The notes beneath the pieces were generated by a model, which was not told the DNA's origin, did not search any database, and saw only the letters and a list, made by a program, of their open reading frames with translations. Shown in pieces: positions 667 to 58,792 of a stretch of 64,000 nucleotides of DNA (position 1 is its first letter; each line of letters begins with the position of its first letter). The translations under genes were made by a program, and so were the position numbers. The stretch is from Deltaproteobacteria bacterium GWA2_45_12 (GTDB lineage Bacteria > UBA10199), in NCBI GenBank assembly GCA_001797365.1, contig MGPH01000028.1:5687-69686 (forward strand), given 5' to 3'.

Positions 667-717
667 AACCCTGAGCGAATCCCGCATTGCGGGATGAGTC
701 GAAGGGTGGCTCAGGAT
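667..717. repeat. Family-2 palindromic repeat (cctgagcga...gtcgaaggg...gctcagg)
   Basis: Sequence aaccctgagcgaatcccgcattgcgggatgagtcgaagggtggctcaggat. Related copies at 5462, 6126, 18815, 24903, 28990 and 58748. Confidence 0.8.
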
Positions 718-5265: not shown

Positions 5266-6120
5266 TTAGCCGACAATCTTCCCCATCCCCACAATCCCAT
5301 GGCATTTGGAATGTGTGGCAACAATAAATTTCGTAGGGGCGAGGTTTCCTCGCCCAAAACTCTTTTTCAATTTTCTCCATTCCTCCGCAATATTTTTTAA
5401 GGGGATGTAAGCCACGCCGTAAACCAATGCGGTGCAAAAAAAGGTGTGGATAGTTGTAGTTGGACCCTGAGCGGAGTGGGCCCTGAGCGGAGTCGAAGGG
5501 TTGAAGGGTCGCAGAACTTTCTTAAAATGTTCCCGAAAATCCCAAGTGCGTGGGGCTTGGGTGTGGGGGCAAATAGTGGGCTCGTCACAATCTAAGGGAC
5601 AGATCCAAGTTGCAAAACTTGTCGCTACAATTCCGGAATCGAAATTTTTTTGGTAGGGGGTGTTAAGGGATTGATTGTAAGGAATGATTTCTGTTTTAAA
5701 TCCTTCTTTCTCCAAGAGCTCTAAAAAAACCTTAAAAAAAACATGGGGGGCAGTGTGGTCGGGAATGAGGATGTCATTCTCATCAACGGTATAAACCCAA
5801 GGGCAAGCCTTGGAAGATTCTCCGCCTAAGGTGGAGGGTTTTGACCCGGCAAGGCGCGTCCCCGAAGCCAACGAGCGTAGGGGATCAAAACCCTGATTAA
5901 GAATATCGACGATAAATTGGGAATAAGATTTTTTAATGATTTGATTCGGATGTTTTTTTTCTGCCAGGGAATTTGGTTTGTCATCAACAAAGAACAGGGA
6001 TTTGAAATCGATAAGCCCTTCTTTTTTGGCCCTGATTAATTTTTGCCCGTAATCGAGCGAGAGTTTGTGGGTGCCGAGGATGTAAATAGAGTGAAGGGAG
6101 AACATTAGCCATTTCCTCAA
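5266..6120 (-). CDS. hypothetical Cys-containing protein; C-terminal portion is made of repeat-element sequence
   Basis: ORF of 284 aa. Two repeat elements (5333-5355, 5462-5510) fall in-frame in its C-terminal third. Confidence 0.45.
   Translation of the reverse strand: MRKWLMFSLHSIYILGTHKLSLDYGQKLIRAKKEGLIDFKSLFFVDDKPNSLAEKKHPNQIIKKSYSQFIVDILNQGFDPLRSLASGTRLAGSKPSTLGGESSKACPWVYTVDENDILIPDHTAPHVFFKVFLELLEKEGFKTEIIPYNQSLNTPYQKNFDSGIVATSFATWICPLDCDEPTICPHTQAPRTWDFREHFKKVLRPFNPSTPLRAHSAQGPTTTIHTFFCTALVYGVAYIPLKNIAEEWRKLKKSFGRGNLAPTKFIVATHSKCHGIVGMGKIVG
5333..5355. repeat. Family-1 element gtaggggcgaggtttcctcgccc
   Basis: gtaggggcg core with an internal hairpin. Confidence 0.7.
5462..5510. repeat. 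Family-2 tandem unit (ccctgagcggagtgggccctgagcggagtcgaaggg)
   Basis: Direct duplication of the cctgagcgg motif. Confidence 0.75.
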
Positions 6121-6125: not shown

Positions 6126-6195
6126 GGGCCTTCGACTTCGCTCAGGCATCGGTCTCTAAGCAGAGTGGTCCCCGAGCGGAGTCGAGGGGGCGAAG
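6126..6195. repeat. Family-2 repeat pair downstream of gltD
   Basis: Sequence gggccttcgacttcgctcagg ... ggtccccgagcggagtcgagggggcgaag. Confidence 0.75.
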
Positions 6196-6200
6196 TGACA

Positions 6201-16326: not shown

Positions 16327-16363
16327 CTATTAATGACAGATCCGGGAACAAATCCCCCTTAAT

Positions 16364-16425: not shown

Positions 16426-16520
16426 TTCCAGGGGGATTTTACCCGAATCCATACCTTTTGCTTGACGAAAGAGAGCCTCATCCGTTATCTGTTTCCCCCC
16501 TTTGTTTTTGATTTTTTTTG

Positions 16521-16595: not shown

Positions 16596-16600
16596 CATTT

Positions 16601-16676
16601 GAGTGGTCGTCCGCCGAAGGCGGATCGCCCCGACATTTGAGTGGTCGTCCGCCGAAGGCGGATCGCCCCGACATTT
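16601..16676 (+). repeat. two tandem 38-nt degenerate copies of the tRNA-Pro 3' half
   Basis: Unit gagtggtcgtccgccgaaggcggatcgccccgacattt. It matches tRNA 16563-16600 except that the T-arm (caggttcaaatcctg) is replaced by the hairpin tccgccgaaggcgga. Confidence 0.85.
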
Positions 16677-16716: not shown

Positions 16717-18807
16717 ATGTCTGACCCCCTCACAACCCATGTTCAATATGTCAAAGGGGTGGGGCCCTATATCGCTTCGCTTTTGGATAAAAAGGGCATC
16801 CATACCGTTGCCGATCTTTTTTATCATTTTCCAGCCTATTACCTTGATCGTCGTAAACTAGACACCATCCGTAGTTTGCAGCCCGGCAAGGAATCTTGTG
16901 TTATTGCCGAAGTTGTGGGCAGTGCCACACGCATGTTGGGGCGAAGTCGTAAACGTATTTTTGAAATTGTCGTGCAAGACGGCACAGGAATCGCCCTTCT
17001 TGTTTTTTTTAATTTCAGCGAAAAATTCTTAAAGAAAAAATATCCCCAAGGGAAACATATTTTTATTTCCGGCGAATGCCAGATGTTTGGGGCCCAAAAA
17101 CAATTCGTGCATCCGGATATCGAAGATTGGGAAGAAGGAGAAGAGACAGGAGGCGGAATATTGCCGGTGTATCCATTAACAGAGGGGCTTTATCAAAAAT
17201 CCCTGCGCAAAATCATTGCCGGGGCTCTTGAGCATTATTTGGAAGGTTTTGAAGAATCCCCTTATTCTGTGCGGGCTGAGGGTGATTCCAAAGTGAGTTT
17301 AAAAGAGGCTCTTCTTAAGGTGCACAGCCCTCCATCCGATGCCAATATTTGCGATCTCAATGAGATGAAGTCGGTTTGGCATCAACGAGTCATTTATGAC
17401 GAATTGTTTTATCTGCAATTGGGTTTGGGCATCAAAAAAGTCAATTTCAAAAAAGAGGAAGGATATCAATTTCAGAAATCCGAAAAATTATTATCCGGCG
17501 CCTTAAGCCTTCTCCCCTTTGAATTAACGGGGGCCCAAAAACGTGTGTTGTCGGAAATAGAAATTGATTTGCTCAAAAATGAGCCCATGAATCGTATGCT
17601 TCAAGGGGATGTGGGGTGCGGTAAAACGATGATTGCTTTTCTTTCTTCCCTGATAGCCATTGAAAACCAAACGCAGGCCGTCCTGATGGCTCCCACCGAG
17701 GTTTTGGCCCAGCAACATTTTATCAATTTAAAACCACTGGCTGAAAAATTGGGGATCCGTATTGCGCTTCTTACACGCACAACCGAAGGAAAAAATGATG
17801 TCTTAGATGAGTTGGCTCAAGGGAAAATAGATCTTGCCATCGGGACTCATGCCCTTATCCAGGATAATGTCTTGTTTAAAAAATTGGGGCTCATCATCAT
17901 TGATGAACAGCACCGCTTTGGAGTGATGCAAAGGGCACGGCTTAAGAAAAAATCATCGGTGTGTCCGCATATTTTGGTGATGACGGCAACGCCCATCCCG
18001 CGCACTTTGGCAATGAGTGTGTATGGCGACTTGGATGTTTCCATTATTGATGAACTTCCCAAGGGGCGCATCCCCATCAAAACATATGTGTTCAACGAAA
18101 AAATGAGGGCAAGGGCCTATGATCTCATCCGGCGTGAGCTGGAAAAGGGAAGGCAGGCTTATTTTGTTTATCCCTTGATTGAAGAAAGTGAAAAGAGTGA
18201 TTTAAAAGATGCCCAATCGATGGCTTTGGAATTAAGCCAGGTGTTTTCATCTTATAAAGTGGGATTGATGCACGGACGCATGAAGAATGATGAAAAGGAT
18301 GGGATCATGCGTTCTTTCAAAAAAAATGAAATCCAGATTCTAGTTTCAACCACGGTCATTGAAGTGGGTGTGGATGTGCCCAACTCAACGGTTATGGTGG
18401 TGGAGCATGCAGAACGTTTTGGGCTTTCGCAATTGCATCAATTAAGGGGAAGGGTGGGAAGAGGGGCGCATGAATCTTATTGCTTGCTCATGGCCCATTA
18501 TGCGCAGTCCGATGAAACCCGGTTTCGATTACGTGTGATGGAAGAAACAACCGATGGTTTTAAAATTGCTGAAGAAGACCTTCAATTGCGCGGCCCGGGA
18601 GATTTTTTGGGGACACGCCAATCGGGGCTGCCCGCTTTTCGCTTGGCCCATTTGGTGCGCGATTCAAAACTTCTGGCTGCGGCGCGTAAGCGCGCCATGG
18701 AAATTATTGAGGATGATCCGGACTTAAATCATCTCCATCACCATCTGATCAAAAAAATTCTAGTTGAAAGATGGGCTGAAAAATTGGAATTGGCAGAGGT
18801 GTCTTAG
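16717..18807 (+). CDS. recG: ATP-dependent DNA helicase RecG
   Basis: Walker A GDVGCGKT, DEQH box, 696 aa. Confidence 0.95.
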   Translation: MSDPLTTHVQYVKGVGPYIASLLDKKGIHTVADLFYHFPAYYLDRRKLDTIRSLQPGKESCVIAEVVGSATRMLGRSRKRIFEIVVQDGTGIALLVFFNFSEKFLKKKYPQGKHIFISGECQMFGAQKQFVHPDIEDWEEGEETGGGILPVYPLTEGLYQKSLRKIIAGALEHYLEGFEESPYSVRAEGDSKVSLKEALLKVHSPPSDANICDLNEMKSVWHQRVIYDELFYLQLGLGIKKVNFKKEEGYQFQKSEKLLSGALSLLPFELTGAQKRVLSEIEIDLLKNEPMNRMLQGDVGCGKTMIAFLSSLIAIENQTQAVLMAPTEVLAQQHFINLKPLAEKLGIRIALLTRTTEGKNDVLDELAQGKIDLAIGTHALIQDNVLFKKLGLIIIDEQHRFGVMQRARLKKKSSVCPHILVMTATPIPRTLAMSVYGDLDVSIIDELPKGRIPIKTYVFNEKMRARAYDLIRRELEKGRQAYFVYPLIEESEKSDLKDAQSMALELSQVFSSYKVGLMHGRMKNDEKDGIMRSFKKNEIQILVSTTVIEVGVDVPNSTVMVVEHAERFGLSQLHQLRGRVGRGAHESYCLLMAHYAQSDETRFRLRVMEETTDGFKIAEEDLQLRGPGDFLGTRQSGLPAFRLAHLVRDSKLLAAARKRAMEIIEDDPDLNHLHHHLIKKILVERWAEKLELAEVS

Positions 18808-18814
18808 ATATTTT

Positions 18815-18862
18815 GGTCCCTGAGCGAAGTCGAAGGGACGGTGTGCTTCGACTCCGCTCAGC
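18815..18862. repeat. Family-2 repeat immediately 5' of lipA
   Basis: Sequence ggtccctgagcgaagtcgaagggacggtgtgcttcgactccgctcagc. Confidence 0.8.
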
Positions 18863-18875
18863 AACCGAAAGCATT

Positions 18876-19739
18876 ATGCAACCCTTACTCAAACCCCCAT
18901 GGCTTAAAAAACGCCTGGACGTTGCCGCCCTGACAGGCATGCAGGCCAGGTTGCGTGGCCTCACCCTGCATTCAGTATGCGAAGAAGCGCGTTGCCCCAA
19001 TATTTCCGAATGCTTTTCCAAGGGTGTGGCCACCGTCATGATCATGGGCGATACCTGCACGCGCGCTTGCAAGTTTTGTGCAGTGGCCACGGGCCGTCCC
19101 AAACCCCTTGATCCAAATGAACCGGAAAATGTCGCCAAATGGGCGGGGGATGCGGGTTTGAAACACATTGTGATTACGTCGGTGGATCGGGACGATCTGC
19201 CCGACTTGGGGGCCACCCATTTTGGAAAAACCGTTCAAACGATGAAAGAAATCCATCCTTTGATGATTGTGGAAGTGCTTACCCCCGATTTTCAGGGGAA
19301 AGGGGAGCTCATCGACAAAGTTTGCCAGGCAGAACCAAAAATTTACAATCACAACCTGGAAACTGTTCGCCGGCTTACGCCCGGGGTTCGTTCTGCGGCC
19401 AGGTATGATCGTTCCCTTCAGGTGATAAAATGGGTCAAAAAAAATTATCCAAATCAATTGACCAAGTCGGGTCTCATGCTGGGCTTGGGCGAAACCGAGG
19501 AAGAAATTCTGGAATCGATGCAGGATCTTTTAAACCATGGCTGCGACATGCTCACCCTGGGTCAATACCTTCAACCCACCTTGAAACATCTTCCCGTTAA
19601 AGAATACATTCCCCTTGAAAAGTTCGAAGGATACCACAAACGCGGTCTTCAAATGGGCTTCAAAGCCGTTTTTGCCGGCCCCTTTGTACGCTCTTCCTAT
19701 CTGGCCGATGAGCTTTATGAACAAACGTTTTCGGTTTGA
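18876..19739 (+). CDS. lipA: lipoyl synthase LipA
   Basis: CEEARCPNISEC and CTRACKFC clusters. Start at ATG 18876; the ORF tool extension MVPERSRRDGV.. is translated repeat. Confidence 0.95.
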   Translation: MQPLLKPPWLKKRLDVAALTGMQARLRGLTLHSVCEEARCPNISECFSKGVATVMIMGDTCTRACKFCAVATGRPKPLDPNEPENVAKWAGDAGLKHIVITSVDRDDLPDLGATHFGKTVQTMKEIHPLMIVEVLTPDFQGKGELIDKVCQAEPKIYNHNLETVRRLTPGVRSAARYDRSLQVIKWVKKNYPNQLTKSGLMLGLGETEEEILESMQDLLNHGCDMLTLGQYLQPTLKHLPVKEYIPLEKFEGYHKRGLQMGFKAVFAGPFVRSSYLADELYEQTFSV

Positions 19740-19836
19740 TGTTTTTCATCACTTTTGACCTTTGGACAGAATTGGCTTGAGCTTTATTTCCAATGGTTTC
19801 CCGTTATTTTAATTACAATAAAAAAATAAAATCGTC

Positions 19837-19942
19837 ATTCCTGCCACGTGACCCCGCAACGCGGGGTTCTGTTGGCAGGAATCCAATACTGGGCCCCCGC
19901 TCTCAGAAATCCTCGGAGTACCGAGGATTAGCGTGGCGGGGG
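19837..19942 (+). ncRNA. candidate structured element: two nested stem-loops
   Basis: Structure attcctgcca[gaccccgc aa cgcggggt]tggcaggaat, then cccccgc[aatcctcgg agta ccgaggatt]gcggggg. Confidence 0.3.
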
Positions 19943-20038
19943 TGACGTTTATAGAGGTGTCCAAAGATTAGCATCACTTTCATTGACACAAAATTCCAAA
20001 AATGATGAAGTGCGCCATTTACTTTCAGGAGCTTTTTT

Positions 20039-21409
20039 ATGCGTTTTTCCCTGCGTTCTTTTTTGATTTTGTTTTTTCTGCTGGGGCTTACTCATTGCGG
20101 GTTTCATAAACCGCACGTCAGGGTTCTTCCCAAGACGGATACCCTGGATAGAAAAATCCTTTTTATCGGTTTGGATGGCATGGGCTATGCCATGATGAAG
20201 GAACTTAAAGACGAGGGCTATTATCGCGGTTTTTCTGAACCGATTCCGCTGATTGTTCCTTTTCCGTCAGCCACGACCATCGGCTTTACAGGCATTTTTC
20301 AAGCGCTTGATGTAGGCACTGTTCCCGGTTACGAGACCCGTTTTTATTCCTTCAAAGATGACAAGATTATCGGGGGGACGCCTTTTGATGTTTATAAAAT
20401 TCCCATTAATTACAAATATTATTTTGATTCCTTCAGGCATACCATGACGGAAAAGGCCATTATGTACGGATTTCCCGGGGTCGCCGGCATGCAAGACCTC
20501 GAACGTGCAAGAAGATTGGTCATGAATAGCCCTAAAAAAGTGGTCTTTTCGTATTTGGGCGGTACCGACGGAGCCCAGCACTTGTTGGGACGCAACCGCA
20601 CCAAGCGTTTCATGAAATTCATGGATTCCTATTTGGAACGAATAAAGAAAGAATATGAAAACAAATTTCATGCGCCATTGGAAATCGTCCTGTTTTCAGA
20701 TCATGGATTCCATTACGACAAGATGCATTTGATGACGGCTGCGGACATTGAAAAAGTCATCAAAGGCCGGGGTTTCAAGCTTGCCAGCCATTTGCGCAAC
20801 AATCCAAAGAATGTGGTTACGGTTCGGTTTGGGCTTTTGAGCGCCGGAGCCCTGTTTACCCACCCATCTTCTGTCACCGAAGTGGCAAGACTTGTCAATG
20901 GAGTGGAGGGCATTGATCTTGTTTTCTGGCCCGAAAAAAACCGGATTTACGTGCTTAATGGAAAAAACGAAGAGGCTTATTTTGAATATGAATCAAAGCG
21001 CCACTACAAATATGTTTCGATAAAAGGCGATCCCTTGCATTATCTTGGTGGCAAAACCATTTTGAAGCTTTCAGATGACCAATGGTTTAAGAAGACATGG
21101 AACGAACAATACCCCGATGCCGGTTACCGTTTGTATGATGCTTTTCATCATTTGGTTGAAAACAAGGCCGGGATTCTTTTTAGCTTGAAACCAAAGTATC
21201 AATTTGGCAGCATGGCTGCCTTAACCGGTACACAGCTTAAATTTGGACACAAGGGAACTCACGGGGCTCTCTTTCAGGATGTAAGCCAGGGTGTGGTGAT
21301 GACCGATAACCCAAAGATCAAACTTCCCCAAGCCCTGCGTTATGATGATTTTTTTAATGTGTTTATCCCTAAAGTGGTGGATGCGGTGAAAAAATGCGGA
21401 GTCCATTAA
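20039..21409 (+). CDS. lipoprotein, alkaline-phosphatase-like (type I phosphodiesterase/nucleotide pyrophosphatase family)
   Basis: Lipobox LTHC; the ILFIGLDGMGY metal-site motif. Confidence 0.65.
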   Translation: MRFSLRSFLILFFLLGLTHCGFHKPHVRVLPKTDTLDRKILFIGLDGMGYAMMKELKDEGYYRGFSEPIPLIVPFPSATTIGFTGIFQALDVGTVPGYETRFYSFKDDKIIGGTPFDVYKIPINYKYYFDSFRHTMTEKAIMYGFPGVAGMQDLERARRLVMNSPKKVVFSYLGGTDGAQHLLGRNRTKRFMKFMDSYLERIKKEYENKFHAPLEIVLFSDHGFHYDKMHLMTAADIEKVIKGRGFKLASHLRNNPKNVVTVRFGLLSAGALFTHPSSVTEVARLVNGVEGIDLVFWPEKNRIYVLNGKNEEAYFEYESKRHYKYVSIKGDPLHYLGGKTILKLSDDQWFKKTWNEQYPDAGYRLYDAFHHLVENKAGILFSLKPKYQFGSMAALTGTQLKFGHKGTHGALFQDVSQGVVMTDNPKIKLPQALRYDDFFNVFIPKVVDAVKKCGVH

Positions 21410-22104
21410 TGAGCAAAAAAAAATGCGTTGTTTTTGATCTGGATGGTACTTTGGTTGATTCCATGAGTGGGCTGGCCGATATAGCCCAAAAGGTCATCCA
21501 GGAAATTTACGACGTTTCTCCTTTGTGGGCTCGCACCCAATACCAACAAACTTCCGGGCTTCCTTTTCCTTTTCAGTTGGACAAAATTTTTCCACAAGAC
21601 TCTCGTAATAGTGGGGCGGTTACGCTTTTTGATGATCTAAAAGAAAAATATTACGTTCATGCCCCTCTTTTTGAGGATGTAAAAGCGGGTCTTCATCTTT
21701 TAAAGAGTGAAGGCTATCATCTGGCGGTTTCCTCCAACAACGATCAGGCTTTGGTGAGCCAAAAAATAGAGCAATTTGATTTACATTTTGACATGGTCAT
21801 GGGGTTTAGACCCAATTTTTTAAAAGGGGCCGATCATTTCCGTTGGCTTTTTCATTGCCTTGGTCTTTTGCCTTCAGACACCTTCATGGTGGGAGATTCC
21901 CTTCATGACGGAAGGTTGGCCCGTCAGTCCGGTGTTTCTTTTGTGGCCCGTTTGGGTACTTTTTCAAAAACGGATTTTGAAAAAGAATTTCCATCACTTT
22001 GTTCCGTTTCTTCCTTTGAAGAACTTCCACTTCTCTTGGCCAAGCAAGATTCTTCAGAAGATTTTGTTTTAAAACGTTCGGCACGACCGTTGATCTCATT
22101 ATAA
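21409..22104 (+). CDS. HAD-superfamily hydrolase (phosphatase)
   Basis: VVFDLDGTLVDS motif I. Coupled to the upstream gene through a TAATG overlap. Confidence 0.8.
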   Translation: MSKKKCVVFDLDGTLVDSMSGLADIAQKVIQEIYDVSPLWARTQYQQTSGLPFPFQLDKIFPQDSRNSGAVTLFDDLKEKYYVHAPLFEDVKAGLHLLKSEGYHLAVSSNNDQALVSQKIEQFDLHFDMVMGFRPNFLKGADHFRWLFHCLGLLPSDTFMVGDSLHDGRLARQSGVSFVARLGTFSKTDFEKEFPSLCSVSSFEELPLLLAKQDSSEDFVLKRSARPLISL

Positions 22105-22823
22105 TGAATATCCTTATTTTAGCTGCAGGGATGGGCGTTCGCCTGGGAAATATTGATCAACCCAAATCCCTTGTTTCCCTCAAGGGCAAATCCCTTTTGG
22201 TTCATCTTTTAGATGGGTTGAGATCTTTTTTTGATGGCACCATTTATGTCGTGGGCGGTTATTGCATTGACCAGCTGGCTCTTGTGACCCAAAAAGATTC
22301 TTCCATCAAACTTCTTAGTAACACCCATTATTCCCGCGGAAGCATCCTTTCTCTTTTGGCAGCCAAGGAATTTTTAAATGATTCGTTTTTTCTCATGAAT
22401 GCGGATCATCTTTATTCACCACGCATTTTAGGGAAAATTTTTTCATTACAAAAAAATCCGGAAAACATCCGCATCCTATGTGACCACGATCGCGCCTTGA
22501 CCCAGGATGACATGAAGGTGAAATTAAATGCCAAGGGAAATGTCCAGGCAATTTCAAAAACACTTTCCGATTTTGATCTTGGGTACATTGGCTGTAGTTT
22601 CATTCCCAAAGATCGTCTTTCTTTATACTGGGAAACGGCCATGGAGGTTTTAAAAACGAAGGGGGACAAAGTGGCTGTTGAAAGTGTTATCCAGGCTCTT
22701 TCAGACAGGGGAGAAGACGTTTGCCCCTTGGATGTGAGTGGTTCTTATTGGATTGAAGTGGATACTCCGGAAGATAGGGCCAAAGCAGAACAAACGCTTT
22801 CCATGGTTCTAAACGATTTTTAG
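22104..22823 (+). CDS. LicC-like sugar/alcohol-phosphate nucleotidyltransferase
   Basis: ILILAAGMGVRLG N-terminal nucleotide-binding motif, 239 aa. Confidence 0.7.
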   Translation: MNILILAAGMGVRLGNIDQPKSLVSLKGKSLLVHLLDGLRSFFDGTIYVVGGYCIDQLALVTQKDSSIKLLSNTHYSRGSILSLLAAKEFLNDSFFLMNADHLYSPRILGKIFSLQKNPENIRILCDHDRALTQDDMKVKLNAKGNVQAISKTLSDFDLGYIGCSFIPKDRLSLYWETAMEVLKTKGDKVAVESVIQALSDRGEDVCPLDVSGSYWIEVDTPEDRAKAEQTLSMVLNDF

Positions 22824-23044
22824 CTTGATCTTTGTTTTCGGATATTTAATATCCCCCTCGTTTTTCTCCCTTGGCTCTCTTTGACGCAAGAATGTTGACT
22901 TGAATGTTTAATTTTAACTCCAAACAAAAGGGTTGGAGAGTTGACAATCAGCCGCACGGCGGCGGTGAGGGGGAGGCTCCAGCGGCTTTGCCGATGGAGG
23001 GGGCGACGCGAGCCCCTATAATCGAATTTTAAAAAGGAAGATTT

Positions 23045-23383
23045 ATGAGCTATGACGATTTAACCGGTGAAGAATTCATTGATGTCATTAAAGATGCCAT
23101 GAAGGAAGATGGGCGTGTGCGTGTTGATTTTGTCGAATTTGAAATGAACAAGGGACGCCCTGTTTTGGCAGGAAGAGTGGCCAGCGATGAAGATTTACTT
23201 ATTGTCGATGAAATCATGACGGATACTCTTGAAATTGACGACTATGACAACAATATCTGGGTTGATGATAGCCTTTCCTTTGAAGCCAGAGATGATGACG
23301 AAGAGGAAACAGAAGACCTCAATTTTGATGAAGCAAGCGATATGGATGAAGAAAGTTTTGATGAAGACGAGGAAGAAAAGTAA
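23045..23383 (+). CDS. hyperacidic small protein
   Basis: 112 aa with a C-terminal D/E run (DDDEEETEDLNFDEASDMDEESFDEDEEEK). Confidence 0.5.
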   Translation: MSYDDLTGEEFIDVIKDAMKEDGRVRVDFVEFEMNKGRPVLAGRVASDEDLLIVDEIMTDTLEIDDYDNNIWVDDSLSFEARDDDEEETEDLNFDEASDMDEESFDEDEEEK

Positions 23384-23456
23384 GCCTTTGGCGCGCCATG
23401 TCCCATCCCCTTGAATTTAAACAATAGTTCAGGATTAAATCCTTGACAAAATGGCT

Positions 23457-23474
23457 TGATTCATGAATGAATCA
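23457..23474. promoter_or_regulatory. putative TetR operator TGATTCA-n4-TGAATCA, overlapping the ttgaca -35 at 23444
   Basis: Perfect 7 bp inverted repeat 27 nt upstream of the TetR start. Confidence 0.5.
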
Positions 23475-23500
23475 CCATTCATTTTTGTGATATTTTCTGT

Positions 23501-24112
23501 ATGGTAAACTCTCCAGCCAAAAAGAGTTCGGTTGATAAACGGCAAAAAATCATGGACGCGGCAGTCCATGTTTTTGCCAAACAAGGCTTTTACAACAGTA
23601 CGGTCGCCGATGTTGCGCGTATGGCGGACGTGGCCGATGGGACCATTTACCTTTATTTCAAGAACAAGGACGATCTGCTCATTTCCATTTTCGAGCATAG
23701 CATCCAGTTTTTTATAGGATCGGCTTACGAAGAGCTTAAAGGAGCCAAAAACGCTGTCGACAAACTTAAAAAGTTTGTTTATCTCCATTTAAAACTGGTT
23801 CAAAACAATCCCCATTTGGCTCATGTTATCCAGGTAGAACTTCGTCAGAGTGCCAAATTTGTAAAGGAATACGCCAACGAGAAATTTTTTGAGTATTTAA
23901 ATATTGTTCGATCCGTCATTGAAGAGGGTCAGCAACAAGGCTTGTTCAAGAAAAGTTTAAATCCCACCTTGGTTAAAAGAGCCATTTTTGGAGCCATTGA
24001 TGAAATGGCCTTGGAATGGGTTTTGATGAACAAGAAGCGATATTCCATTGAAGAAGCCGCCAAGGAATTATGCCTTCTCTTTATTGAAGGAATGATGGAA
24101 AGAAAGGAATAA
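23501..24112 (+). CDS. TetR-family transcriptional regulator (FadR-like, upstream of etfBA)
   Basis: HTH segment VHVFAKQGFYNSTVADVARMADVADGTIYLYF. Confidence 0.85.
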   Translation: MVNSPAKKSSVDKRQKIMDAAVHVFAKQGFYNSTVADVARMADVADGTIYLYFKNKDDLLISIFEHSIQFFIGSAYEELKGAKNAVDKLKKFVYLHLKLVQNNPHLAHVIQVELRQSAKFVKEYANEKFFEYLNIVRSVIEEGQQQGLFKKSLNPTLVKRAIFGAIDEMALEWVLMNKKRYSIEEAAKELCLLFIEGMMERKE

Positions 24113-24118
24113 AAAAAT

Positions 24119-24892
24119 ATGAAAATAGCCGCTCTTTTGAAACAAGTTCCCGACACCGAAACAAAAATTCGTATCAAGGCCGATGCCAGTGGTATCGAAG
24201 AATCGGATATCAAATACATTGTAAATCCTTATTGTGAATTTGCTGTGGAAGAGGCCATTAAAACCAGGGAAAAAAATCCTGGCAGTGAGGCCGTCGCCAT
24301 CTCTTTGGGGCCCGACCGTGCTGTTGAAGCCATTAGAACAGCCCTGGCCATGGGCATGGATAAAGGGATTCATATTCAACATACGGGAGGATGGTTGGAT
24401 AGTTTTAGTGTGGCCACAGTTTTGGCTAAAGTGATTGGGCAAAATAATTTTGATGTCATTTTTTGCGGCAAACAGGCCATCGATGAAGATGCCGGCCAGA
24501 CGGCCCAAATGATTGCCGAAATTTTAAACATTCCCCAAGTCATGGTCATCGAAAAATTTGAGCTAAAGGATGCCAAAACAGCTGTTGTTACTCGCCGTGT
24601 CAGTGGAGGGGCCAAGGAAATTTATGAAACCCCACTCCCCATTCTTGTGGGTTGTGAAAAGGGGCTTAATACCCCTCGTTACGCTTCTTTACCCGGCATC
24701 ATGAAGGCAAAAACCAAGCCCGTTCAAAAACTGCTTTCAACCGATTTGTTGGCGGGAAGTCAGTCGCTGGTTCAATTTGTAAACTACCAACTGCCCCCTG
24801 AACGTAAAGCCGGCAAGAAACTGGATGGAGAGCCAGCCCAACAGGCCAAAGAATTGGCCCGTTTGCTCAGGGAAGAAGCAAAAGTGATATAG
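24119..24892 (+). CDS. etfB: electron transfer flavoprotein beta subunit
   Basis: MKIAALLKQVPDTE.. typical EtfB N-terminus. Confidence 0.9.
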   Translation: MKIAALLKQVPDTETKIRIKADASGIEESDIKYIVNPYCEFAVEEAIKTREKNPGSEAVAISLGPDRAVEAIRTALAMGMDKGIHIQHTGGWLDSFSVATVLAKVIGQNNFDVIFCGKQAIDEDAGQTAQMIAEILNIPQVMVIEKFELKDAKTAVVTRRVSGGAKEIYETPLPILVGCEKGLNTPRYASLPGIMKAKTKPVQKLLSTDLLAGSQSLVQFVNYQLPPERKAGKKLDGEPAQQAKELARLLREEAKVI

Positions 24893-24902
24893 TACTGGGC
24901 AT

Positions 24903-24968
24903 GGTCCCTGAGCGAAGTGGTCCCCGAGCGGAGTCGAGGGGTCGAAGGGACACCTCGACTCCGCTCGG
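24903..24968. repeat. Family-2 repeat between etfB and etfA
   Basis: Sequence ggtccctgagcgaagtggtccccgagcggagtcgaggggtcgaagggacacctcgactccgctcgg. Confidence 0.8.
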
Positions 24969-24994
24969 TGACCACCCCTAAAGAGGAGAAAATC

Positions 24995-25975
24995 ATGACC
25001 GACATTCTTGTATTAGGCGAACATGCAGACGGTAAAGTGAAAAAAACAACCTTTGAACTTGTTTCCAAGGCCAGCCAGTTGGCAGGCGAATCTGGGGGAA
25101 AAGTTTTTTGTTTGTTTATTGGAAATAAGGTGGGTGATTTGCCGGGCCAAGTGGCTTGTTTTGGCGCCAAGGCCGCCATTGTGGTCGAAGATGAAAAACT
25201 GGCCAACTACAATACTATTGCCTTCAAAGAAATTCTGGTTCAGGTGATCAACCAGTTCAAACCAAGCATTGTTTTGGGAACGGCATCTCCCACAGGAAAA
25301 GATGTTTTTCCCCGTTTGGCAGTCAGTGTGAAGGCGGGTCTTGCCACCGATGCCATCGAACTTCGTCTGGATAACGGAAAACTTGTTGCCAAACGTCCTG
25401 TTTTTTCGGGAAAAACCCTGGTTGAAGTTTCGTATAAAACACCCGTTCAGTTGGCGACATGCCGTCCCAATTCTTTCCCAACCAATGAGGCATCCACAGG
25501 AGCTGCCCCCGAGATTATCAAGCTTTCACCCCAAATTTCTGAACTGCGTTGTGTGATGAAGGAAAAGGTGCAAGGAGTTGTTGGCAAGCAAGATTTGACC
25601 GAAGCTGAAATCATTGTCTCCGGAGGGCGTGCGATGGCCAATGCGGATAATTTCAAGATTTTAAACGCCATGGCCGATGTGATAGGGGCCACTGTAGGAG
25701 CTAGCCGTGCCGCCGTTGATTCAGGATATGCCCCCCATGACATGCAAGTGGGGCAAACCGGAAAAGTGGTCAATCCAAAACTTTACATGGCCTGTGGTAT
25801 TTCCGGGGCCATTCAGCATTTGGCGGGGATGCGTACTTCCAAGGTGATTGTCGCCATTAACAAAGACCCCGAAGCTCCCATTTTTTCAAAAGCGGACTAT
25901 GGCATTGTAGGAGATTTATTTACCGTAATCCCTCTTTTGACGGACGAACTTAAAAAAGTGGTTGCTGAAAGTTAA
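24995..25975 (+). CDS. etfA: electron transfer flavoprotein alpha subunit
   Basis: ATG 24995 follows the RBS aagaggag. FAD-binding C-terminal domain. Confidence 0.9.
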   Translation: MTDILVLGEHADGKVKKTTFELVSKASQLAGESGGKVFCLFIGNKVGDLPGQVACFGAKAAIVVEDEKLANYNTIAFKEILVQVINQFKPSIVLGTASPTGKDVFPRLAVSVKAGLATDAIELRLDNGKLVAKRPVFSGKTLVEVSYKTPVQLATCRPNSFPTNEASTGAAPEIIKLSPQISELRCVMKEKVQGVVGKQDLTEAEIIVSGGRAMANADNFKILNAMADVIGATVGASRAAVDSGYAPHDMQVGQTGKVVNPKLYMACGISGAIQHLAGMRTSKVIVAINKDPEAPIFSKADYGIVGDLFTVIPLLTDELKKVVAES

Positions 25976-25983
25976 AGCCAAAC

Positions 25984-26901
25984 ATGAATGATCCAAGTTT
26001 TGAGGTTTTTAGGGAGGCTCTCTTGCACGAAAAGCAAGCTTCCCCCCATACGGTTAAAAACTACCTCCATGATCTCAAAGAGTTTTGGGGATACCTGCAT
26101 CAATTCAGTCCAGAATGTATAAATAATAAAAAACTTGAACTAAATAAAGTTAACCCATTAATACTAAGGGGGTTTTTATCTTTTATATTTCAAGGGAAAA
26201 GTCCTGCTACTGTAGCGCGAAAACTTTCGACTTTGCGAACTTTCTTTCATTTTTGGGTTAAAAGAGGTGTTTTAAGCCAGAACCCGGCCAAGGCGATTTC
26301 ATCCCCAAAAATTCCCAAAAAATTGCCCCGTTTTTTAAATGTGGATGAAATTTTTGCCCTTTTAGATATTGCGGTAACCGACGATTTTCAGGGAAGACGG
26401 GATTGTGCCATCTTGGAATTACTTTATTCATCGGGCTTACGCGTTAGTGAACTGGTGGGGCTGGATGAAACCTGTGTTGATTTGGAAAACAGGTTGGTTA
26501 AAGTCTTGGGAAAGGGACGCAAAGAGCGTATTGTGCCCGTGGGGAAAAAAGCCATTGAAAAACTGAAAATCTACTTGGAAAAACGGGATAAAGTATTGGC
26601 CCAATTAAAAACGACAAACAAAACATCGTCTGTTTTTTTAAATCGTAGGGGCGAGCGTCTGAATGTAAGGAGTGTTCAACGTTTGGTGAGGCAGGCTTTA
26701 GTCAGATCGGGGTTGGGTAAAGAAATATCGCCCCATGGCTTACGGCACACTTTTGCCACCCATTTATTGAATGCCGGGGCCGATTTGCGGTCCATTCAAG
26801 AACTCTTGGGGCATGCAAATTTGTCAACCACCCAAAAATATACCCATGTCAATGTGGAACAATTGATGAAGGTGTATGATTCGGCGCATCCAAAGGCATG
26901 A
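25984..26901 (+). CDS. xerC: tyrosine recombinase XerC
   Basis: HGLRHTFATHLL..LGHANLSTTQKYTHV catalytic box. Classical xerC-hslV-hslU synteny. Confidence 0.9.
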   Translation: MNDPSFEVFREALLHEKQASPHTVKNYLHDLKEFWGYLHQFSPECINNKKLELNKVNPLILRGFLSFIFQGKSPATVARKLSTLRTFFHFWVKRGVLSQNPAKAISSPKIPKKLPRFLNVDEIFALLDIAVTDDFQGRRDCAILELLYSSGLRVSELVGLDETCVDLENRLVKVLGKGRKERIVPVGKKAIEKLKIYLEKRDKVLAQLKTTNKTSSVFLNRRGERLNVRSVQRLVRQALVRSGLGKEISPHGLRHTFATHLLNAGADLRSIQELLGHANLSTTQKYTHVNVEQLMKVYDSAHPKA

Positions 26902-26925
26902 GGGATATAACGAATTGACAAAAAC

Positions 26926-27000
26926 GTAGGGGCGAACCTTGCCTGCCCGCCTCAGGAGGGTATTCGCCCTGAAATGGGCGATCACAAGGATCGCCCCTAC
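26926..27000. repeat. Family-1 MITE-like element with 10 bp TIR (gtaggggcga / tcgcccctac)
   Basis: Lies between xerC and hslV. Confidence 0.75.
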
Positions 27001-27013
27001 ATAGGAGAATTAA

Positions 27014-27553
27014 ATGCAAGAAAAAATAAAAAGCACAACAATCCTGGCCGTTTTGCGTGACGGCAACCTGGCCCTGGCGGGTGATGGGCAGGTGACCTTC
27101 AATCAAACGGTCCTTAAATCAAATACAAAAAAAATCCGGACCCTTCATGATGGAAAAGTATTGGCCGGCTTTGCCGGATCAACAGCAGATGCTTTTACTT
27201 TATTTGAGAAGTTTGAGGTAAAGCTTAACGAATATAATGGCCAGCTTGTGCGCGCGGCTGTTGAAATGGCCAAGGAATGGCGCATGGATAAAATGCTGCG
27301 TCGCCTGGAAGCCATGCTTTTGGTGGCGGACAAATCAAATATTCTGGTTTTATCAGGTAATGGGGACGTCATTGATAATGAAGATGGCATTGCAGCCATT
27401 GGGTCCGGTGGCCCCTTTGCACTGGCCGCGGCACGTTCTTTGGCCAGGCACACAAAACTTCCGGCCAAGGATATTGTCATGGAGGCCATGAAGGTGGCTT
27501 CTGAAATCTGTATTTACACCAATAACCAAATTGTTTTAGAAGAGATTTCTTAA
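27014..27553 (+). CDS. hslV: ATP-dependent protease subunit HslV
   Basis: [11 protein letters not shown]-terminal Thr protease motif. Confidence 0.95.
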
Positions 27554-27555
27554 TT

Positions 27556-28983
27556 ATGTCCAACGACTTAAAAAACTTTATCCCGCGCGAAATTGTGTCC
27601 GAGCTTGATCGGTTCATCATCGGCCAGCACGAAGCCAAAAGGGCCGTGGCCATTGCCATGCGCAATCGTTGGCGAAGGCAACAAGTGAGTGCCGACCTTA
27701 AGGATGAAATCACCCCCAAGAACATCATTATGATTGGCCCCACCGGTGTGGGAAAAACGGAGATTGCCCGGCGCCTTTCAAAACTGGCCAATGCCCCCTT
27801 CATCAAGGTGGAAGCCTCCAAATTTACGGAAGTGGGTTATGTGGGGAAGGATGTCGAATCGATGATTCGTGAGCTTTTGGACACGGCCATCAATATGGTT
27901 CGCTCCGAAGAAGAAGAAAAAGTCAAAGTAAAGGCCGAGGAGTTGGCGGAAGAACGATTGCTTGATTTGCTTCTTCCCAAAAAATCGCAACGCCCAAAGC
28001 AGGCGGCCCCTCTTTCACAGGAGGGAGGAATGGTTTTTGATGTACCGATCCAGGAACCACCGCCTTCTTTGGTAGAAGAAGAAAAAGACGATACTCGTGA
28101 AAAAATGAAGCTGATGCTCCGAACGGGGAAACTAGATAACCGCAGTGTTGAATTGCAGCCCGATGCCGGTCCACGTTCCGGTGGAATGCCCATGATCGAA
28201 GTGGTGACAGCCGGTGGCAGCCTGGAAGATATCGGAAAAAATTTGCGAGAAATGTTTTCAGGCATGATGCCCGCGGGGCGTAAACGAAAAAAGGTGAAAG
28301 TGCCAGAGGCGCTTAAAATTCTTACAACCGAGGAAGCCGCCAAATTAATAGAAATGGATGAGGTAGTTAAAAAAGCCATTGTTCGTGTCGAGCAAAATGG
28401 AATCGTGTTTATCGATGAAATTGACAAAATCGCTTCGCGTGAAGGCTCTGGCCGCGGGCCCGATGTTTCACGCGAGGGGGTGCAACGCGATATTTTACCC
28501 ATTGTTGAAGGGAGCACTGTCAGTACGCGTTATGGAATGGTAAAGACCGATCATATCTTGTTTGTGGCGGCGGGGGCGTTTCATGTTTCAAAGCCCTCCG
28601 ATCTTATTCCTGAATTACAGGGGCGTTTTCCCATTCGTGTGGAATTGCAATCGCTTAAAGAAGAAGATTTTATCCGTATTTTAACAGAACCCCAAAACTC
28701 ACTGTCAAAACAGTACAAGGCGCTTTTGGCCACCGAAGGGGTTGAACTTGATCTTACTGAAGAGGGTTTAAGGGAAGTAGCGAAGTTGGCCGCATTGGCC
28801 AATGAACAAATGGAAAATATCGGAGCTCGCAGGCTTTACACCATTATGGAACGTGTTTTGGATGAAATATCCTTTGATGCCAGCGAAAAATCGGGACAAA
28901 AGTTTGTTGTAGATGCCAAGTATGTAAGACAATGCTTGGCCACGGTGATGAAAAACCAGGATTTGAGTCGTTATATTTTGTAA
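27556..28983 (+). CDS. hslU: ATP-dependent protease ATPase subunit HslU
   Basis: [16 protein letters not shown] Walker A, 475 aa. Confidence 0.95.
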
Positions 28984-28989
28984 ATGTTT

Positions 28990-29050
28990 GGTCCCCAAGC
29001 GAAGTGGTCCCCGAGCGGAGTCGAGGGGTCGAAGGGCCATCTCGACTCCG
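28990..29050. repeat. Family-2 repeat immediately 5' of argB
   Basis: Near-identical to 24903-24968. Confidence 0.8.
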
Positions 29051-29089
29051 TTTGGTACCCGTTCATCGATTAGATTTACGGAGAAAATA

Positions 29090-58747: not shown

Positions 58748-58792
58748 AACCCTGAGCGATCCGCTGCGGAGAGTCGAAGGGTCGCTCAGGAT
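58748..58792. repeat. Family-2 repeat aaccctgagcgatccgctgcggagagtcgaagggtcgctcaggat
   Basis: Lies upstream of the glnE start. Confidence 0.8.

What the first reader, a model, noticed from the sequence alone, without database searches (positions are those of the whole stretch)
18815..29050. Family-2 repeats placed immediately 5' of lipA, etfA and argB in identical orientation
- Three nearly identical 48-66 nt elements (ggtcc-ctgagcgaagt-...-gtcgaaggg...ctcgactccg) end 8-40 nt before the start codons of three unrelated genes on the plus strand.
- The genes are lipA (18876), etfA (24995) and argB (29090).
- Translated in frame, they give the spurious N-terminal extensions MVPERSRR / MVPERSRG / MVPKRSGP in the ORF track.
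- Other copies sit at 3' ends (667, 6126, 58748).
- The etfB-etfA copy is inside an operon.
- REP-like elements in such positions can stabilise upstream mRNA or modulate translation of the downstream gene.
Basis: partly seen in the sequence, partly recalled or inferred. Interest (0 to 1): 0.55.

Follow-up and report, generated by a model that had tools for sequence, protein, structure and literature searches.

The report
Nuclease-linked hairpin repeats between genes
The three elements are real copies of a small palindromic repeat that has lodged in the gaps between neighbouring genes; it is built from a 23-base hairpin module found across many bacterial phyla, where it flanks genes for a tiny GIY-YIG nuclease, so it is most likely selfish or domesticated DNA rather than a switch placed in front of lipA, etfA and argB.

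Summary
Related palindromic elements lie at 18815-18866, 24903-24973 and 28990-29059, far above chance, and they create false N-terminal extensions.

The "5' placement in identical orientation" reading is weak:
- Each element starts 6-10 nt after the upstream stop codon, but ends 9-33 nt before the next start.
- A fourth intercistronic copy (6128-6197, minus-strand genes) has the opposite arrangement.
- One copy sits in-frame inside a conserved gene.

Each element is an inverted doublet of a 23-nt module: a GGT tag, a 4-bp covarying stem and an invariant loop GAGCGNAGYCGA. In elements 2 and 3 one module is nested inside another.

The module occurs in more than 12 phyla and shows no strand bias relative to transcription. 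Orthologous loci show gain or loss of single 24-nt modules at hairpin apexes.

In other genomes the module flanks ~100-aa GIY-YIG nuclease genes (5 loci found from the repeat side, 6 of 6 from the protein side). This parallels the Ssn/SRM ssDNA-nuclease system published in 2025, although the published SRM consensus does not match.

No such gene lies in the ~83 kb of this genome I could reach.

RNA-level effects are plausible by-products only; lipA's ribosome-binding region is occluded, argB's is open.

The parts
18815..18837 (+). Element 1, left module: GGT tag (18815-17), stem CCCT (18818-21), loop GAGCGAAGTCGA (18822-33), stem AGGG (18834-37).
18844..18866 (-). Element 1, right module on the minus strand: GGT-TGCT-GAGCGGAGTCGA-AGCA. 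Together with the left module it forms a tags-outward inverted doublet. The RNA hairpin spans 18811-18870 (-33 kcal/mol) and ends 5 nt before the lipA ATG.
24903..24918 (+). Element 2, 5' part of the split outer module (GGT-CCCT-GAGCGAAGT).
24919..24941 (+). Element 2, complete inner module nested at the apex of the outer one: GGT-CCCC-GAGCGGAGTCGA-GGGG.
24942..24949 (+). Element 2, 3' part of the split outer module (TCGA-AGGG).
24951..24973 (-). Element 2, right module on the minus strand: GGT-CACC-GAGCGGAGTCGA-GGTG. It pairs with the inner module in a hairpin of about 27 bp (24917-24975).
   Evidence: (I14)
28990..29036 (+). Element 3, nested composite. Outer 5' part GGT-CCCC-AAGCGAAGT (28990-29005), inner module GGT-CCCC-GAGCGGAGTCGA-GGGG (29006-29028), outer 3' part TCGA-AGGG (29029-29036).
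29038..29059 (-). Element 3, decayed right module (plus strand reads CATC-TCGACTCCGTTT-GGTA-CC). It carries several substitutions, mostly transitions, relative to element 2.
6128..6197 (.). Fourth intercistronic copy, between the gltD stop (6201-6203, minus strand) and the PF27252 gene start. It has a minus-strand module GAT-GCCT-GAGCGAAGTCGA-AGGC (6128-6150) followed by the plus-strand nested composite (6151-6197). This is a tags-inward arrangement, the opposite of elements 1-3.
5462..5508 (+). Nested composite without a right arm, lying inside the minus-strand gene 5266-6120 (PF27252 family). It encodes an in-frame insertion of about 14 aa (RPFNPSTPLRAHSAQGPTT) that is absent from 9 homologues.
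669..715 (+). Variant module CCCT-GAGCGA-[ATCCCGCATTGCGGGAT]-GAGTCGA-AGGG followed by TGGCTCAGG. It lies between convergent genes (HepT-like and enoyl-CoA hydratase).
58750..58790 (+). Variant module CCCT-GAGCGA-[TCCGCTGCGGA]-GAGTCGA-AGGG followed by TCGCTCAGG. It sits next to a 25-bp hairpin (58698-58749) in the region between glnE and the GGDEF gene.

Best explanation
The three elements are dispersed, non-coding copies of a REP-like repeat family.

**Building block.** The unit is a 23-nt tagged hairpin. It has an unpaired GGT, a 4-bp stem of free but complementary sequence, and an invariant 12-nt loop GAGCGNAGYCGA. The loop can close as tandem G.A pairs, a G-C pair, a bulged pyrimidine, and a C-G pair closing a GNA triloop.

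**Arrangement in this genome.** The modules occur as inverted doublets, and as a composite in which one module is nested at the apex of another. They have inserted into permissive gaps just downstream of stop codons, and once in-frame into a gene.

**Link to a nuclease.** In other genomes the same module is the flanking repeat of genes for a GIY-YIG nuclease of about 100 aa. The most likely mechanism (inferred) is that of the Ssn/SRM system. The hairpin would be recognised as single-stranded DNA by a cognate small GIY-YIG nuclease that cuts just 5' of it. That activity, or host repair following it, would account for the repeats' spread, turnover and nesting at hairpin apexes.

**Consequences for expression.** Position relative to lipA, etfA and argB is incidental. 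Because the elements are transcribed inside operons, they probably act secondarily as stable intercistronic RNA hairpins. These would protect the upstream cistron's 3' end. At recG-lipA the hairpin would impede termination at the recG stop and mask the lipA ribosome-binding region.

**Shown versus inferred.**
- Shown: the anatomy, the covariation, the distribution, the insertion polymorphisms and the GIY-YIG association in other genomes.
- Inferred: nuclease recognition, mobility in this genome, and any RNA effect.
For: **Module structure**
- In unbiased instances the stem positions are paired 97, 93, 92 and 83% of the time, against shuffled maxima of 81, 82, 59 and 62%.
- There are 28 distinct fully complementary stems. 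Positions 5 and beyond pair at chance level. GGT is the tag in 72 of 143 instances.
- The loop triplet is GNA in 97% of cases. Among exact 23-mer hits the closing pair is T-A 122 times, C-G 27 times and mismatched once.

**Distribution**
- The exact 23-mer occurs in at least 120 genome loci from more than 12 phyla and in 14 viral contigs.
- It is absent from 741 kb of control loci. The window has 8 loops in 64 kb.

**Gene context**
- Instances are mostly intergenic and closer to gene 3' ends.
- Convergent and co-directional gene pairs far outnumber divergent ones.
- Sense 31 against antisense 25.

**Gain and loss of single modules**
- L216 has an extra complete 24-nt module inside the triloop of a module it shares with its orthologue L208.
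- L210 and L214 carry different modules, in opposite orientations, in the loop of the same orthologous hairpin.
- Nested composites occur in four taxa.
- There is an in-frame insertion in a conserved gene.

**GIY-YIG association**
- Five repeat-selected loci have a GIY-YIG gene embedded in module arrays.

**Published precedent**
- PMC11893778 describes small GIY-YIG nucleases that bind their flanking hairpin repeats as ssDNA only and cut upstream of the hairpin. The three nucleotides 5' of the palindrome are important for cleavage.

**Local anatomy**
-.
Against: - No GIY-YIG gene lies in the window or in about 19 kb of extra flanks from the same genome. The rest of the genome could not be reached.
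- The published SRM consensus matches neither the module nor the flanks of these GIY-YIG genes.
- I could not show that these proteins belong to the Ssn clade (cd10448). Their nearest solved structures are UPF0213 proteins.
- The association is correlative. No cleavage or mobility was tested.
- No empty-site comparison exists for the three focal sites, because the nearest relatives are only about 65-68% identical in EtfA.
- All four nested composites in the window lie on the plus strand. This hints at an orientation rule I could not explain. The GC-skew test across taxa was weak and pointed the other way.
Confidence: 0.62

Rival explanations
1. One reading: these are dedicated 5' leader elements. 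They would be placed in a fixed orientation in front of lipA, etfA and argB to modulate translation or transcript processing of the downstream gene.
For: - All three lie on the sense strand within 9-33 nt of a start codon.
- At lipA the hairpin base ends 5 nt before the ATG and buries positions -12 to -6.
- Elements 2 and 3 are 91% identical.
Against: - Distances to the start codon vary, while distances to the upstream stop are constant.
- The argB Shine-Dalgarno sequence is unpaired. The etfA Shine-Dalgarno lies outside the main hairpin.
- The three downstream genes are functionally unrelated.
- The same family occurs between convergent genes, inside a gene, and in the opposite arrangement in the gltD-PF27252 gap.
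- There is no sense bias across taxa.
- Relatives carry unrelated palindromes in the etfB-etfA gap.
- The conserved loop with a free stem, and the GIY-YIG linkage, point to recognition as DNA.
Confidence: 0.1
2. The elements are kept mainly for an RNA-level REP-like role on the upstream gene. One version is an intercistronic hairpin that blocks 3'-to-5' exonucleases and sets differential stability within operons (for example etfB against etfA). Another is a stop-proximal hairpin that stalls terminating ribosomes and lowers upstream protein output.
For: - The hairpins are strong and lack a T-tract.
- They start 3-10 nt after stop codons. Published work reports that E. coli REPs fewer than 16 nt from a stop codon down-regulate translation (cited in PMC12306157).
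- REPs between co-directional genes typically hug the upstream ORF (PMC3733652).
- Four lineages independently carry some hairpin in the etfB-etfA gap.
Against: - The main stems of elements 2 and 3 begin 24-27 nt after the stop.
- An RNA role predicts a strand preference relative to transcription. None is seen (31 against 25).
- An RNA stabiliser needs only a stem. Here the loop is invariant across phyla while the stem is free.
- Ssn-type nucleases do not bind RNA (PMC11893778).
- This role is best seen as a by-product that may be co-opted locally.
Confidence: 0.2
3. They are classical REP/REPIN elements mobilised by a REP-associated tyrosine transposase (RAYT, an IS200-like Y1 enzyme).
For: - They show an inverted-doublet (REPIN-like) organisation and an unpaired tag next to a hairpin.
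- A true GTAG-tagged REP family co-occurs in the same window.
Against: - The tag is GGT, not GTAG or CGTC.
- A motif (regex) screen for HUH and Y-x-x-x-NP signatures found no RAYT-like ORF in the window or in about 1.6 Mb of loci.
- The three Y1_Tnp ORFs found among the loci lie 3-6 kb from any module.
- GIY-YIG genes, not Y1 genes, are the ones embedded in module arrays.
Confidence: 0.05
4. They are transcription terminators or attenuators that separate recG from lipA, etfB from etfA, and hslU from argB.
For: - They are very stable GC-rich hairpins directly after stop codons.
- In some other genomes the module sits in the loop of terminator-like hairpins followed by T-runs (L004, L052).
Against: - None of the three hairpins is followed by a T-tract, and the consensus terminator scan does not flag them.
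- etfB and etfA encode the two subunits of one heterodimer and must be co-expressed.
Confidence: 0.03

Closest known systems
Ssn nucleases and their Ssn-related motifs (NTS/SRM), Chenal et al. 2025, Nat Commun (PMC11893778)
   Same: - Genome-wide hairpin repeats of 20-50 nt, with a short conserved 5' flank that gives them an orientation.
- The repeats flank, on both sides, the gene for a single-domain GIY-YIG nuclease of about 94-100 aa.
- Wide phylogenetic spread, mostly intergenic location.
- The gene-plus-repeat layout resembles an insertion sequence.
   Different: - The published SRM consensus (HGTCWY...) does not match this module.
- The tag here is GGT rather than CGTC.
- Here the loop is invariant and the stem is free. 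In NTS the stem sequence itself is required.
- The associated proteins are closest to UPF0213 structures, and their membership of cd10448 is unverified.
- No cognate gene has been seen in this genome so far.
REP/BIME elements and the GTAG- and CGTC-tagged REP superfamilies (Di Nocera et al. 2013, PMC3733652); REPIN-RAYT systems
   Same: - Short GC-rich palindromes carrying an unpaired tag.
- Inverted doublets.
- Located between co-directional or convergent genes, close to the upstream ORF's 3' end.
- Occasional in-frame intragenic copies.
- Spurious N-terminal extensions of annotated ORFs.
   Different: - No GTAG or CGTC tag.
- No RAYT association.
- Stems vary freely while the loop is conserved across phyla. 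Classical REP families are lineage-specific with conserved stems.
Small dispersed repeats (SDR) of Nostocaceae, the "very small mobile repeated elements" of Elhai et al. 2008. This comparison rests on my memory and on citing papers, because the paper itself is not held.
   Same: - Unit size of about 21-27 nt.
- Tandem and nested copies.
- Precise insertion into palindromic targets.
- No coding capacity.
   Different: - SDRs were reported only in Nostocaceae.
- Sequence relatedness could not be checked.
- No nuclease association was described for them.
Rickettsia palindromic elements (RPE) and intragenic REPs
   Same: In-frame insertion into a conserved protein-coding gene (5462-5508 in the PF27252 gene).
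   Different: RPEs are longer (about 100-150 bp) and lineage-restricted.
d(GCGNAGC) DNA mini-hairpins (review PMC13037366)
   Same: A GNA triloop closed by a C-G pair lies at the apex of the module, and 97% of loop triplets are GNA.
   Different: The module has an extra bulged pyrimidine (GCGNAG-Y-C). Its stability was not measured.

Membership tests
Classical REP / GTAG- or CGTC-tagged REP | Short GC-rich imperfect palindrome, many copies, mostly intergenic. | tested here: met
   - 12 motif hits against 0.07 expected.
- Hairpin z-scores of -4.8 to -5.8.
- 7 loci in 64 kb.
Classical REP / GTAG- or CGTC-tagged REP | Unpaired GTAG or CGTC tetranucleotide at one end. | tested here: not met
   The tag is GGT in 72 of 143 unbiased instances. 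No GTAG or CGTC tag is present.
Classical REP / GTAG- or CGTC-tagged REP | Preference for co-directional or convergent gaps, close to the upstream ORF's 3' end. | tested here: met
   - Window copies start 3-10 nt after stop codons.
- Across taxa: 56 co-directional, 24 convergent and 7 divergent gaps, with copies nearer gene 3' ends (crude ORF calls).
REPIN-RAYT system | A Y1 (IS200-like) transposase gene flanked by the repeats. | tested here: not met
   - A motif (regex) screen found no RAYT-like ORF.
- The Y1_Tnp ORFs in L054, L057 and L119 lie 3-6 kb from any module.
- Only about 83 kb of the source genome could be examined.
Ssn / SRM system | Hairpin repeats of 20-50 nt with a conserved 5' flank that gives them an orientation. 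| tested here: met
   GGT tag plus a 20-nt hairpin.
Ssn / SRM system | The repeats flank a small single-domain GIY-YIG gene. | tested here: met
   - Met in other genomes: 5 repeat-selected loci and 6 of 6 protein-selected loci.
- For the source genome it is unresolved. No GIY-YIG gene lies in about 83 kb.
Ssn / SRM system | The repeat matches the published SRM degenerate sequence HGTCWYN(0-2)YYVSBRHN(0-5)WNVSBRGN(0-2)RNCYNB. | tested here: not met
   There are no matches in the window, in the module consensus, or in nine GIY-YIG loci. The positive-control NTS sequence does match.
Ssn / SRM system | The protein belongs to the cd10448 clade or is a homologue of N. meningitidis SsnA. | not testable with these tools
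   - No CDD library or SsnA sequence is available here.
- Pfam gives PF01541 only.
- The nearest PDB entries are UPF0213 proteins 1ZG2 and 1YWL.
Ssn / SRM system | ssDNA-only binding of the hairpin and cleavage a few nucleotides upstream. | not testable with these tools
   This is a biochemical property. Nothing here tests it.
Very small mobile repeats (SDR) | A unit of about 21-27 nt that is gained or lost as a whole, and is found nested and inside palindromes. | tested here: met
   - 24-nt presence/absence between L208 and L216.
- Module swap between L210 and L214.
- Nested composites.
- Modules embedded in hairpins of at least 6 bp: 5.5% against 1.0% in the control.
Very small mobile repeats (SDR) | Sequence identity to SDR1-8 of Nostoc. 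| not tested
MITE | Terminal inverted repeats with a target-site duplication, typically 100-400 bp. | tested here: not met
   The window elements are 52-71 nt with no evident duplication of flanking bases. In one Bacteroidales MAG the module is part of a longer inverted structure (L032, L047, L096, L109).
Intrinsic terminator | A GC-rich hairpin followed by a T/U tract. | tested here: not met
   There is no T-run after any of the three hairpins, and the terminator scan does not flag them.
Any Rfam RNA family | A covariance-model match at the family's gathering score. | tested here: not met
   Only the tRNA-Pro reaches gathering score in the window. Sub-threshold hits are generic miRNA-hairpin matches.

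The most novel reading that the evidence does not exclude
The 23-24-nt tagged hairpin is itself the mobile unit, which would make it one of the smallest mobile DNAs known. It would be spread across more than 12 bacterial phyla and some phages. A distinct clade of small GIY-YIG (Ssn-like or UPF0213-like) ssDNA nucleases would propagate it. These enzymes would read an invariant structured loop rather than the stem, and would direct insertion into the apex of other DNA hairpins, including terminators and other modules. This would be a second repeat-nuclease partnership, parallel to NTS-SsnA and REP-RAYT but with its own consensus, and it would come with ready-made variation in stem sequence.
Probability: 0.35. 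Interest if true: 0.75.

Novelty: new variant of a known kind. Interest (0 to 1): 0.45.

Why it matters
**For this window**
- The result removes a tempting regulatory story.
- It flags three mis-annotated start codons. The public EtfA entry carries 26 residues that derive from the repeat and spacer rather than from the protein.

**More broadly**
- It ties a very common metagenomic "junk peptide" motif (PERSRR, LRLRSA and similar) to a defined hairpin module.
- The module has strong structural covariation and a candidate partner enzyme.
- If the GIY-YIG proteins embedded in these arrays cut ssDNA next to a loop-defined hairpin, they would add new specificities to the ssDNA-nuclease toolbox opened by Ssn.
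- They could also help explain how ultra-short repeats move and nest without a transposase.

Tried and rejected
- **Rfam.** Gathering and permissive scans gave only tRNA-Pro and generic miRNA-like hairpin hits.
- **Literature string search.** No paper holds the motif.
- **Ribozyme or k-turn readings of the loop.** I checked by eye against the hammerhead core (CUGANGA...GAAA) and it does not fit, so I dropped this.
- **RAYT search.** The motif screen for RAYT-like ORFs was negative. The few Y1_Tnp ORFs are not adjacent to modules.
- **Replication-strand bias.**
  - All nested composites in the window lie on the G-rich strand.
  - Across loci, orientation against local GC skew was weak and opposite (43 against 66, p=0.035). 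This is inconclusive.
- **Empty-site comparison for the three focal gaps.**
  - Other assemblies of the same population are 99.98-100% identical.
  - The nearest relatives are only about 65-68% identical in EtfA.
- **Apparent absence of the 654-729 element in NCBI contig DNQF01000093.1.** This is an "NN" assembly gap, not a polymorphism.
- **Plasmid and phage BLAST with element 2.** No match.
- **Promoter and terminator consensus scan.** Nothing specific at the elements. One weak promoter-like site at 28948-28977 is no better than chance.
- **Elhai 2008 SDR paper.** It could not be read.
- **Ssn paper supplements.** They are not held.

Full report
**1. Checking the observation**

The three elements exist at the stated places.
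- Element 1 spans 18815-18866, between the recG stop (18805-18807) and the lipA ATG (18876).
- Element 2 spans 24903-24973, between the etfB stop (24890-24892) and the etfA ATG (24995).
- Element 3 spans 28990-29059, between the hslU stop (28981-28983) and the argB ATG (29090).

A degenerate 18-mer of the shared left arm gives 12 hits in the window, against 0.07 expected from dinucleotide shuffles. Pfam confirms LipA, EtfA and ArgB.

The ORF list shows the in-frame MVPERSRR, MVPERSRG and MVPKRSGP extensions. The public protein for this EtfA is indeed called with the extension (352 aa). Homologues start at M-x-DILV, so the extension is not conserved.

Elements 2 and 3 are 91% identical over 68 nt. 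Element 1 is simpler.

**2. Anatomy**

Every copy is built from one module: GGT, a 4-bp stem, the 12-nt loop GAGCGNAGYCGA, and the complementary 4 bases.
- Element 1 is an inverted pair of two different modules with their tags pointing outward. These are GGT-CCCT...AGGG on the plus strand and GGT-TGCT...AGCA on the minus strand.
- Elements 2 and 3 carry a complete C-G-type module (GGT-CCCC...GGGG) nested at the apex of a split T-A-type module. A minus-strand module follows (GGT-CACC...GGTG), which has decayed in element 3.

The same nested composite recurs at 5462-5508 and 6151-6197. Because each doublet holds one module on each strand, "orientation" refers only to a left/right asymmetry.

As RNA the doublets fold into hairpins of -33 to about -57 kcal/mol, with z-scores of -4.8 to -5.8. 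None is followed by a T-tract, and the consensus scans flag no terminator or convincing promoter at them.

**3. Is the placement special?**

The elements sit 6-10 nt after the upstream stop codons. The hairpin base of element 1 begins only 3 nt after the recG stop. Their distance to the next start codon varies: 9, 21 and about 30 nt.

The region where a Shine-Dalgarno sequence would lie is buried only at lipA, where unpaired probability is 0.00-0.07 at positions -12 to -6. The argB GGAG is open (0.68-0.97). The etfA AGGAG lies outside the main stem.

A fourth intercistronic copy (6128-6197) lies 3 nt after the gltD stop and about 7 nt before the next minus-strand gene. Its arrangement is the opposite of elements 1-3.

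Other copies occupy different contexts:
- one lies between convergent genes (669-715);
- one lies in the glnE/GGDEF intergenic region (58750-90);
- one lies inside a real gene.

The ORF 5266-6120 has 19 homologues of 216-445 aa (most about 230-250 aa), all carrying PF27252. The alignment shows that the repeat encodes an in-frame insertion of about 14 residues, absent from all nine homologues compared.

At least 13 of about 30 intergenic gaps in the window carry one of three palindromic repeat families. Three family-2 copies among about 17 co-directional gaps is therefore unremarkable.

In 52 other etfBA loci the etfB-etfA spacer has a median of about 32 nt. The window's 102 nt equals the element plus about 27 nt.

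The nearest relatives are 65-68% identical in EtfA. They carry unrelated palindromes in the same gap: a GTAG REP in L203 and other families in L204/205 and L206.

**4. The module is a structured, pan-phylum unit**

The taxa include:
- Bacteroidota
- Cyanobacteria
- Gammaproteobacteria
- Geobacterales and Desulfobulbaceae
- Spirochaetota
- Fibrobacterota
- Patescibacteria
- Calditrichia
- Chlorobiota
- Holophagales
- Margulisbacteria
- Rifleibacteriota

It also hit 14 IMG/VR contigs.

I then collected instances anchored only on the loop, excluding those that matched the search pattern. In these, the four flanking positions pair 97, 93, 92 and 83% of the time, against shuffled maxima of 81, 82, 59 and 62%. 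There are 28 different fully complementary stems. Pairing drops to chance from position 5 outward. The 5' tag is GGT in half of the instances, and nothing is conserved on the 3' side.

The loop triplet is GNA in 97% of cases. This fits a compact fold of tandem G.A pairs, a G-C pair, a bulged pyrimidine, and a C-G pair closing a GNA triloop. That apex resembles the d(GCGNAGC) mini-hairpin (PMC13037366).

The loop is absent from 741 kb of control loci, including the relatives. No paper in the library contains the sequence, and no Rfam family matches it.

**5. Behaviour across genomes**

With crude ORF calls, the module is mostly intergenic (87 against 28). It lies nearer gene 3' ends and is rare between divergent genes (7). 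Among co-directional genes it shows no preference for the sense strand (31 against 25). This argues against a strand-specific RNA role.

Two pairs of orthologous viral contigs show turnover of single modules.
- L216 has one complete extra 24-nt module inside the triloop of a module it shares with L208. The neighbouring module has a different stem in each contig.
- L210 and L214 carry different modules, in opposite orientations, in the loop of the same orthologous GC hairpin.

Nested composites occur in Cyclobacterium, Prolixibacteraceae, Weeksella and the window. Modules embedded in a flanking hairpin of at least 6 bp are about five-fold enriched over a shuffled control (5.5% against 1.0%).

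**6. Partner gene**

I clustered all ORFs from the repeat-selected loci. This turned up a small GIY-YIG protein (PF01541) in four loci. A profile search raised this to six loci.

In five of these loci essentially all modules lie within 400 nt of the gene, and in three of them on both sides. The five taxa are Bacteroidia, Marinamargulisbacteria, Weeksella, Flavobacteriales and Gammaproteobacteria.

I then ran the reciprocal test. I searched with the L120 protein and found 2582 proteins at E<=1e-10. Many are 110-175 aa long, which is consistent with read-through into the repeats. All six loci have 4-15 modules next to the gene and almost none elsewhere in about 5 kb. In L234, besides the two modules at the gene's 3' end, one lies about 230 nt upstream and a doublet about 1.4 kb downstream.

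Y1 transposase ORFs present in three loci are 3-6 kb from any module. A RAYT-motif screen was negative.

**7. Comparison with what is known**

Chenal et al. 2025 (PMC11893778) described the Ssn family. These are GIY-YIG nucleases of about 94 aa whose genes are flanked by hairpin repeats (NTS/SRM).
- They bind the hairpin only as ssDNA, not as dsDNA or RNA.
- They cut a few nucleotides upstream of it.
- The three bases 5' of the palindrome are important for cleavage.
- The gene-plus-repeat layout resembles REP-RAYT.

The present module behaves the same way in its layout and its tag. It differs in three respects:
- it fails the published SRM consensus;
- its tag is GGT rather than CGTC;
- it conserves the loop rather than the stem.

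The associated proteins are nearest to the UPF0213 structures 1ZG2 and 1YWL. I could not test whether they fall in cd10448.

The unit size, nesting and insertion into palindromes also recall Elhai's small dispersed repeats. I could only cite these indirectly.

The gene-context pattern and the spurious N-terminal extensions match what Di Nocera et al. reported for REPs.

**8. What it most likely does here**

*Shown:* the three elements are insertions of a dispersed hairpin repeat into ordinary intercistronic gaps.

*Inferred:* the conserved features are maintained by recognition as single-stranded DNA by a small GIY-YIG nuclease encoded elsewhere in the genome. I found none in the window or in about 19 kb of additional flanks.

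*Any effect on expression is secondary and local.* The possibilities are:
- protection of the upstream cistron's 3' end;
- interference with termination at the recG stop, given published reports that REPs fewer than 16 nt from a stop lower translation;
- masking of the lipA ribosome-binding region.

**9. Verdict**

The regulatory interpretation is only partly supported. The repeat is a new variant of a recently described kind of nuclease-associated hairpin repeat.

Noticed in passing
window 2273-2306, 5325-5347, 12452-12518, 13103-13170, 26985-27010, 32231-32264, 45349-45377, 2032-2060: A second repeat family with the classical GTAG tag (GTAGGGGCGCnGCTTGCnGCGCCC). It often occurs as inverted doublets (12453-12476 with 12494-12517; 13104-13127 with 13146-13169). 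One copy lies inside the PF27252 gene. The same GTAG-type REPs co-occur with the GGT-tagged module in cyanobacterial loci (L052, L083, L086, L118).
   Followed up: partly
window 33490-33515, 38188-38213, 62119-62159; 38238-38293 and 62187-62242: A third palindromic family (GGACATGGTGAGC...GTCGAACCAT) and a 56-nt repeat pair (84% identical). These lie in other intergenic gaps and produce MVS(L/P) peptide artefacts, for example at the start of the enoyl-CoA hydratase ORF.
   Followed up: no
window 16521-16662: A perfect 38-nt tandem duplication (16587-16624 and 16625-16662) begins inside the 3' end of tRNA-Pro(GGG) (16521-16596). A 45-nt inverted repeat lies just upstream (16339-16449). This could be an old integration scar. 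The two NCBI contigs that make up the window meet in this region (about 15.6-16.6 kb).
   Followed up: no
window 5266-6120 (minus strand): The PF27252-family gene is about 40 aa longer than most of its homologues. Besides the family-2 insert it has a second, larger lineage-specific insert (residues about 78-113, DNA about 5790-5890). One homologue (P0130) has a different insert at the same position. This suggests a loop that tolerates repeated insertions.
   Followed up: partly
L203 7945-8000; L204 7902-8000; L206 3293-3386: In three relatives (65-68% EtfA identity) the etfB-etfA gap holds unrelated GC-rich palindromes: a GTAG REP, a multi-hairpin block, and a GTGCTGAG-repeat palindrome. Either this gap is unusually permissive, or a hairpin between the two ETF cistrons is repeatedly favoured.
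   Followed up: partly
L233 2501-2818; L234 2501-2950: Two of the module-flanked GIY-YIG genes sit inside type I restriction-modification operons. One lies between hsdM and hsdS, overlapping both. The other lies after hsdR and before a patatin gene and hsdS.
   Followed up: no
L232 (NCBI DNQF01000093.1), corresponding to window 654-729: The public contig has "NN" exactly where the window carries the 76-nt stretch that contains the variant module. The repeat evidently broke or confused that assembly.
   Followed up: yes
L032, L047, L096, L109 (Bacteroidales MAG MFD05684 and a Prolixibacteraceae MAG): The 23-mer occurs as the inner part of conserved inverted arms of about 90 nt, some 130-175 nt apart. 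The whole resembles a longer MITE-like element that incorporates the module.
   Followed up: no
window 28948-28977: A weak sigma-70-like match (ATGAAA-18-TATATT) lies at the very end of hslU. If it were functional, the argB transcript would start with element 3. The scan found fewer such sites than in shuffles, so this carries no weight.
   Followed up: no
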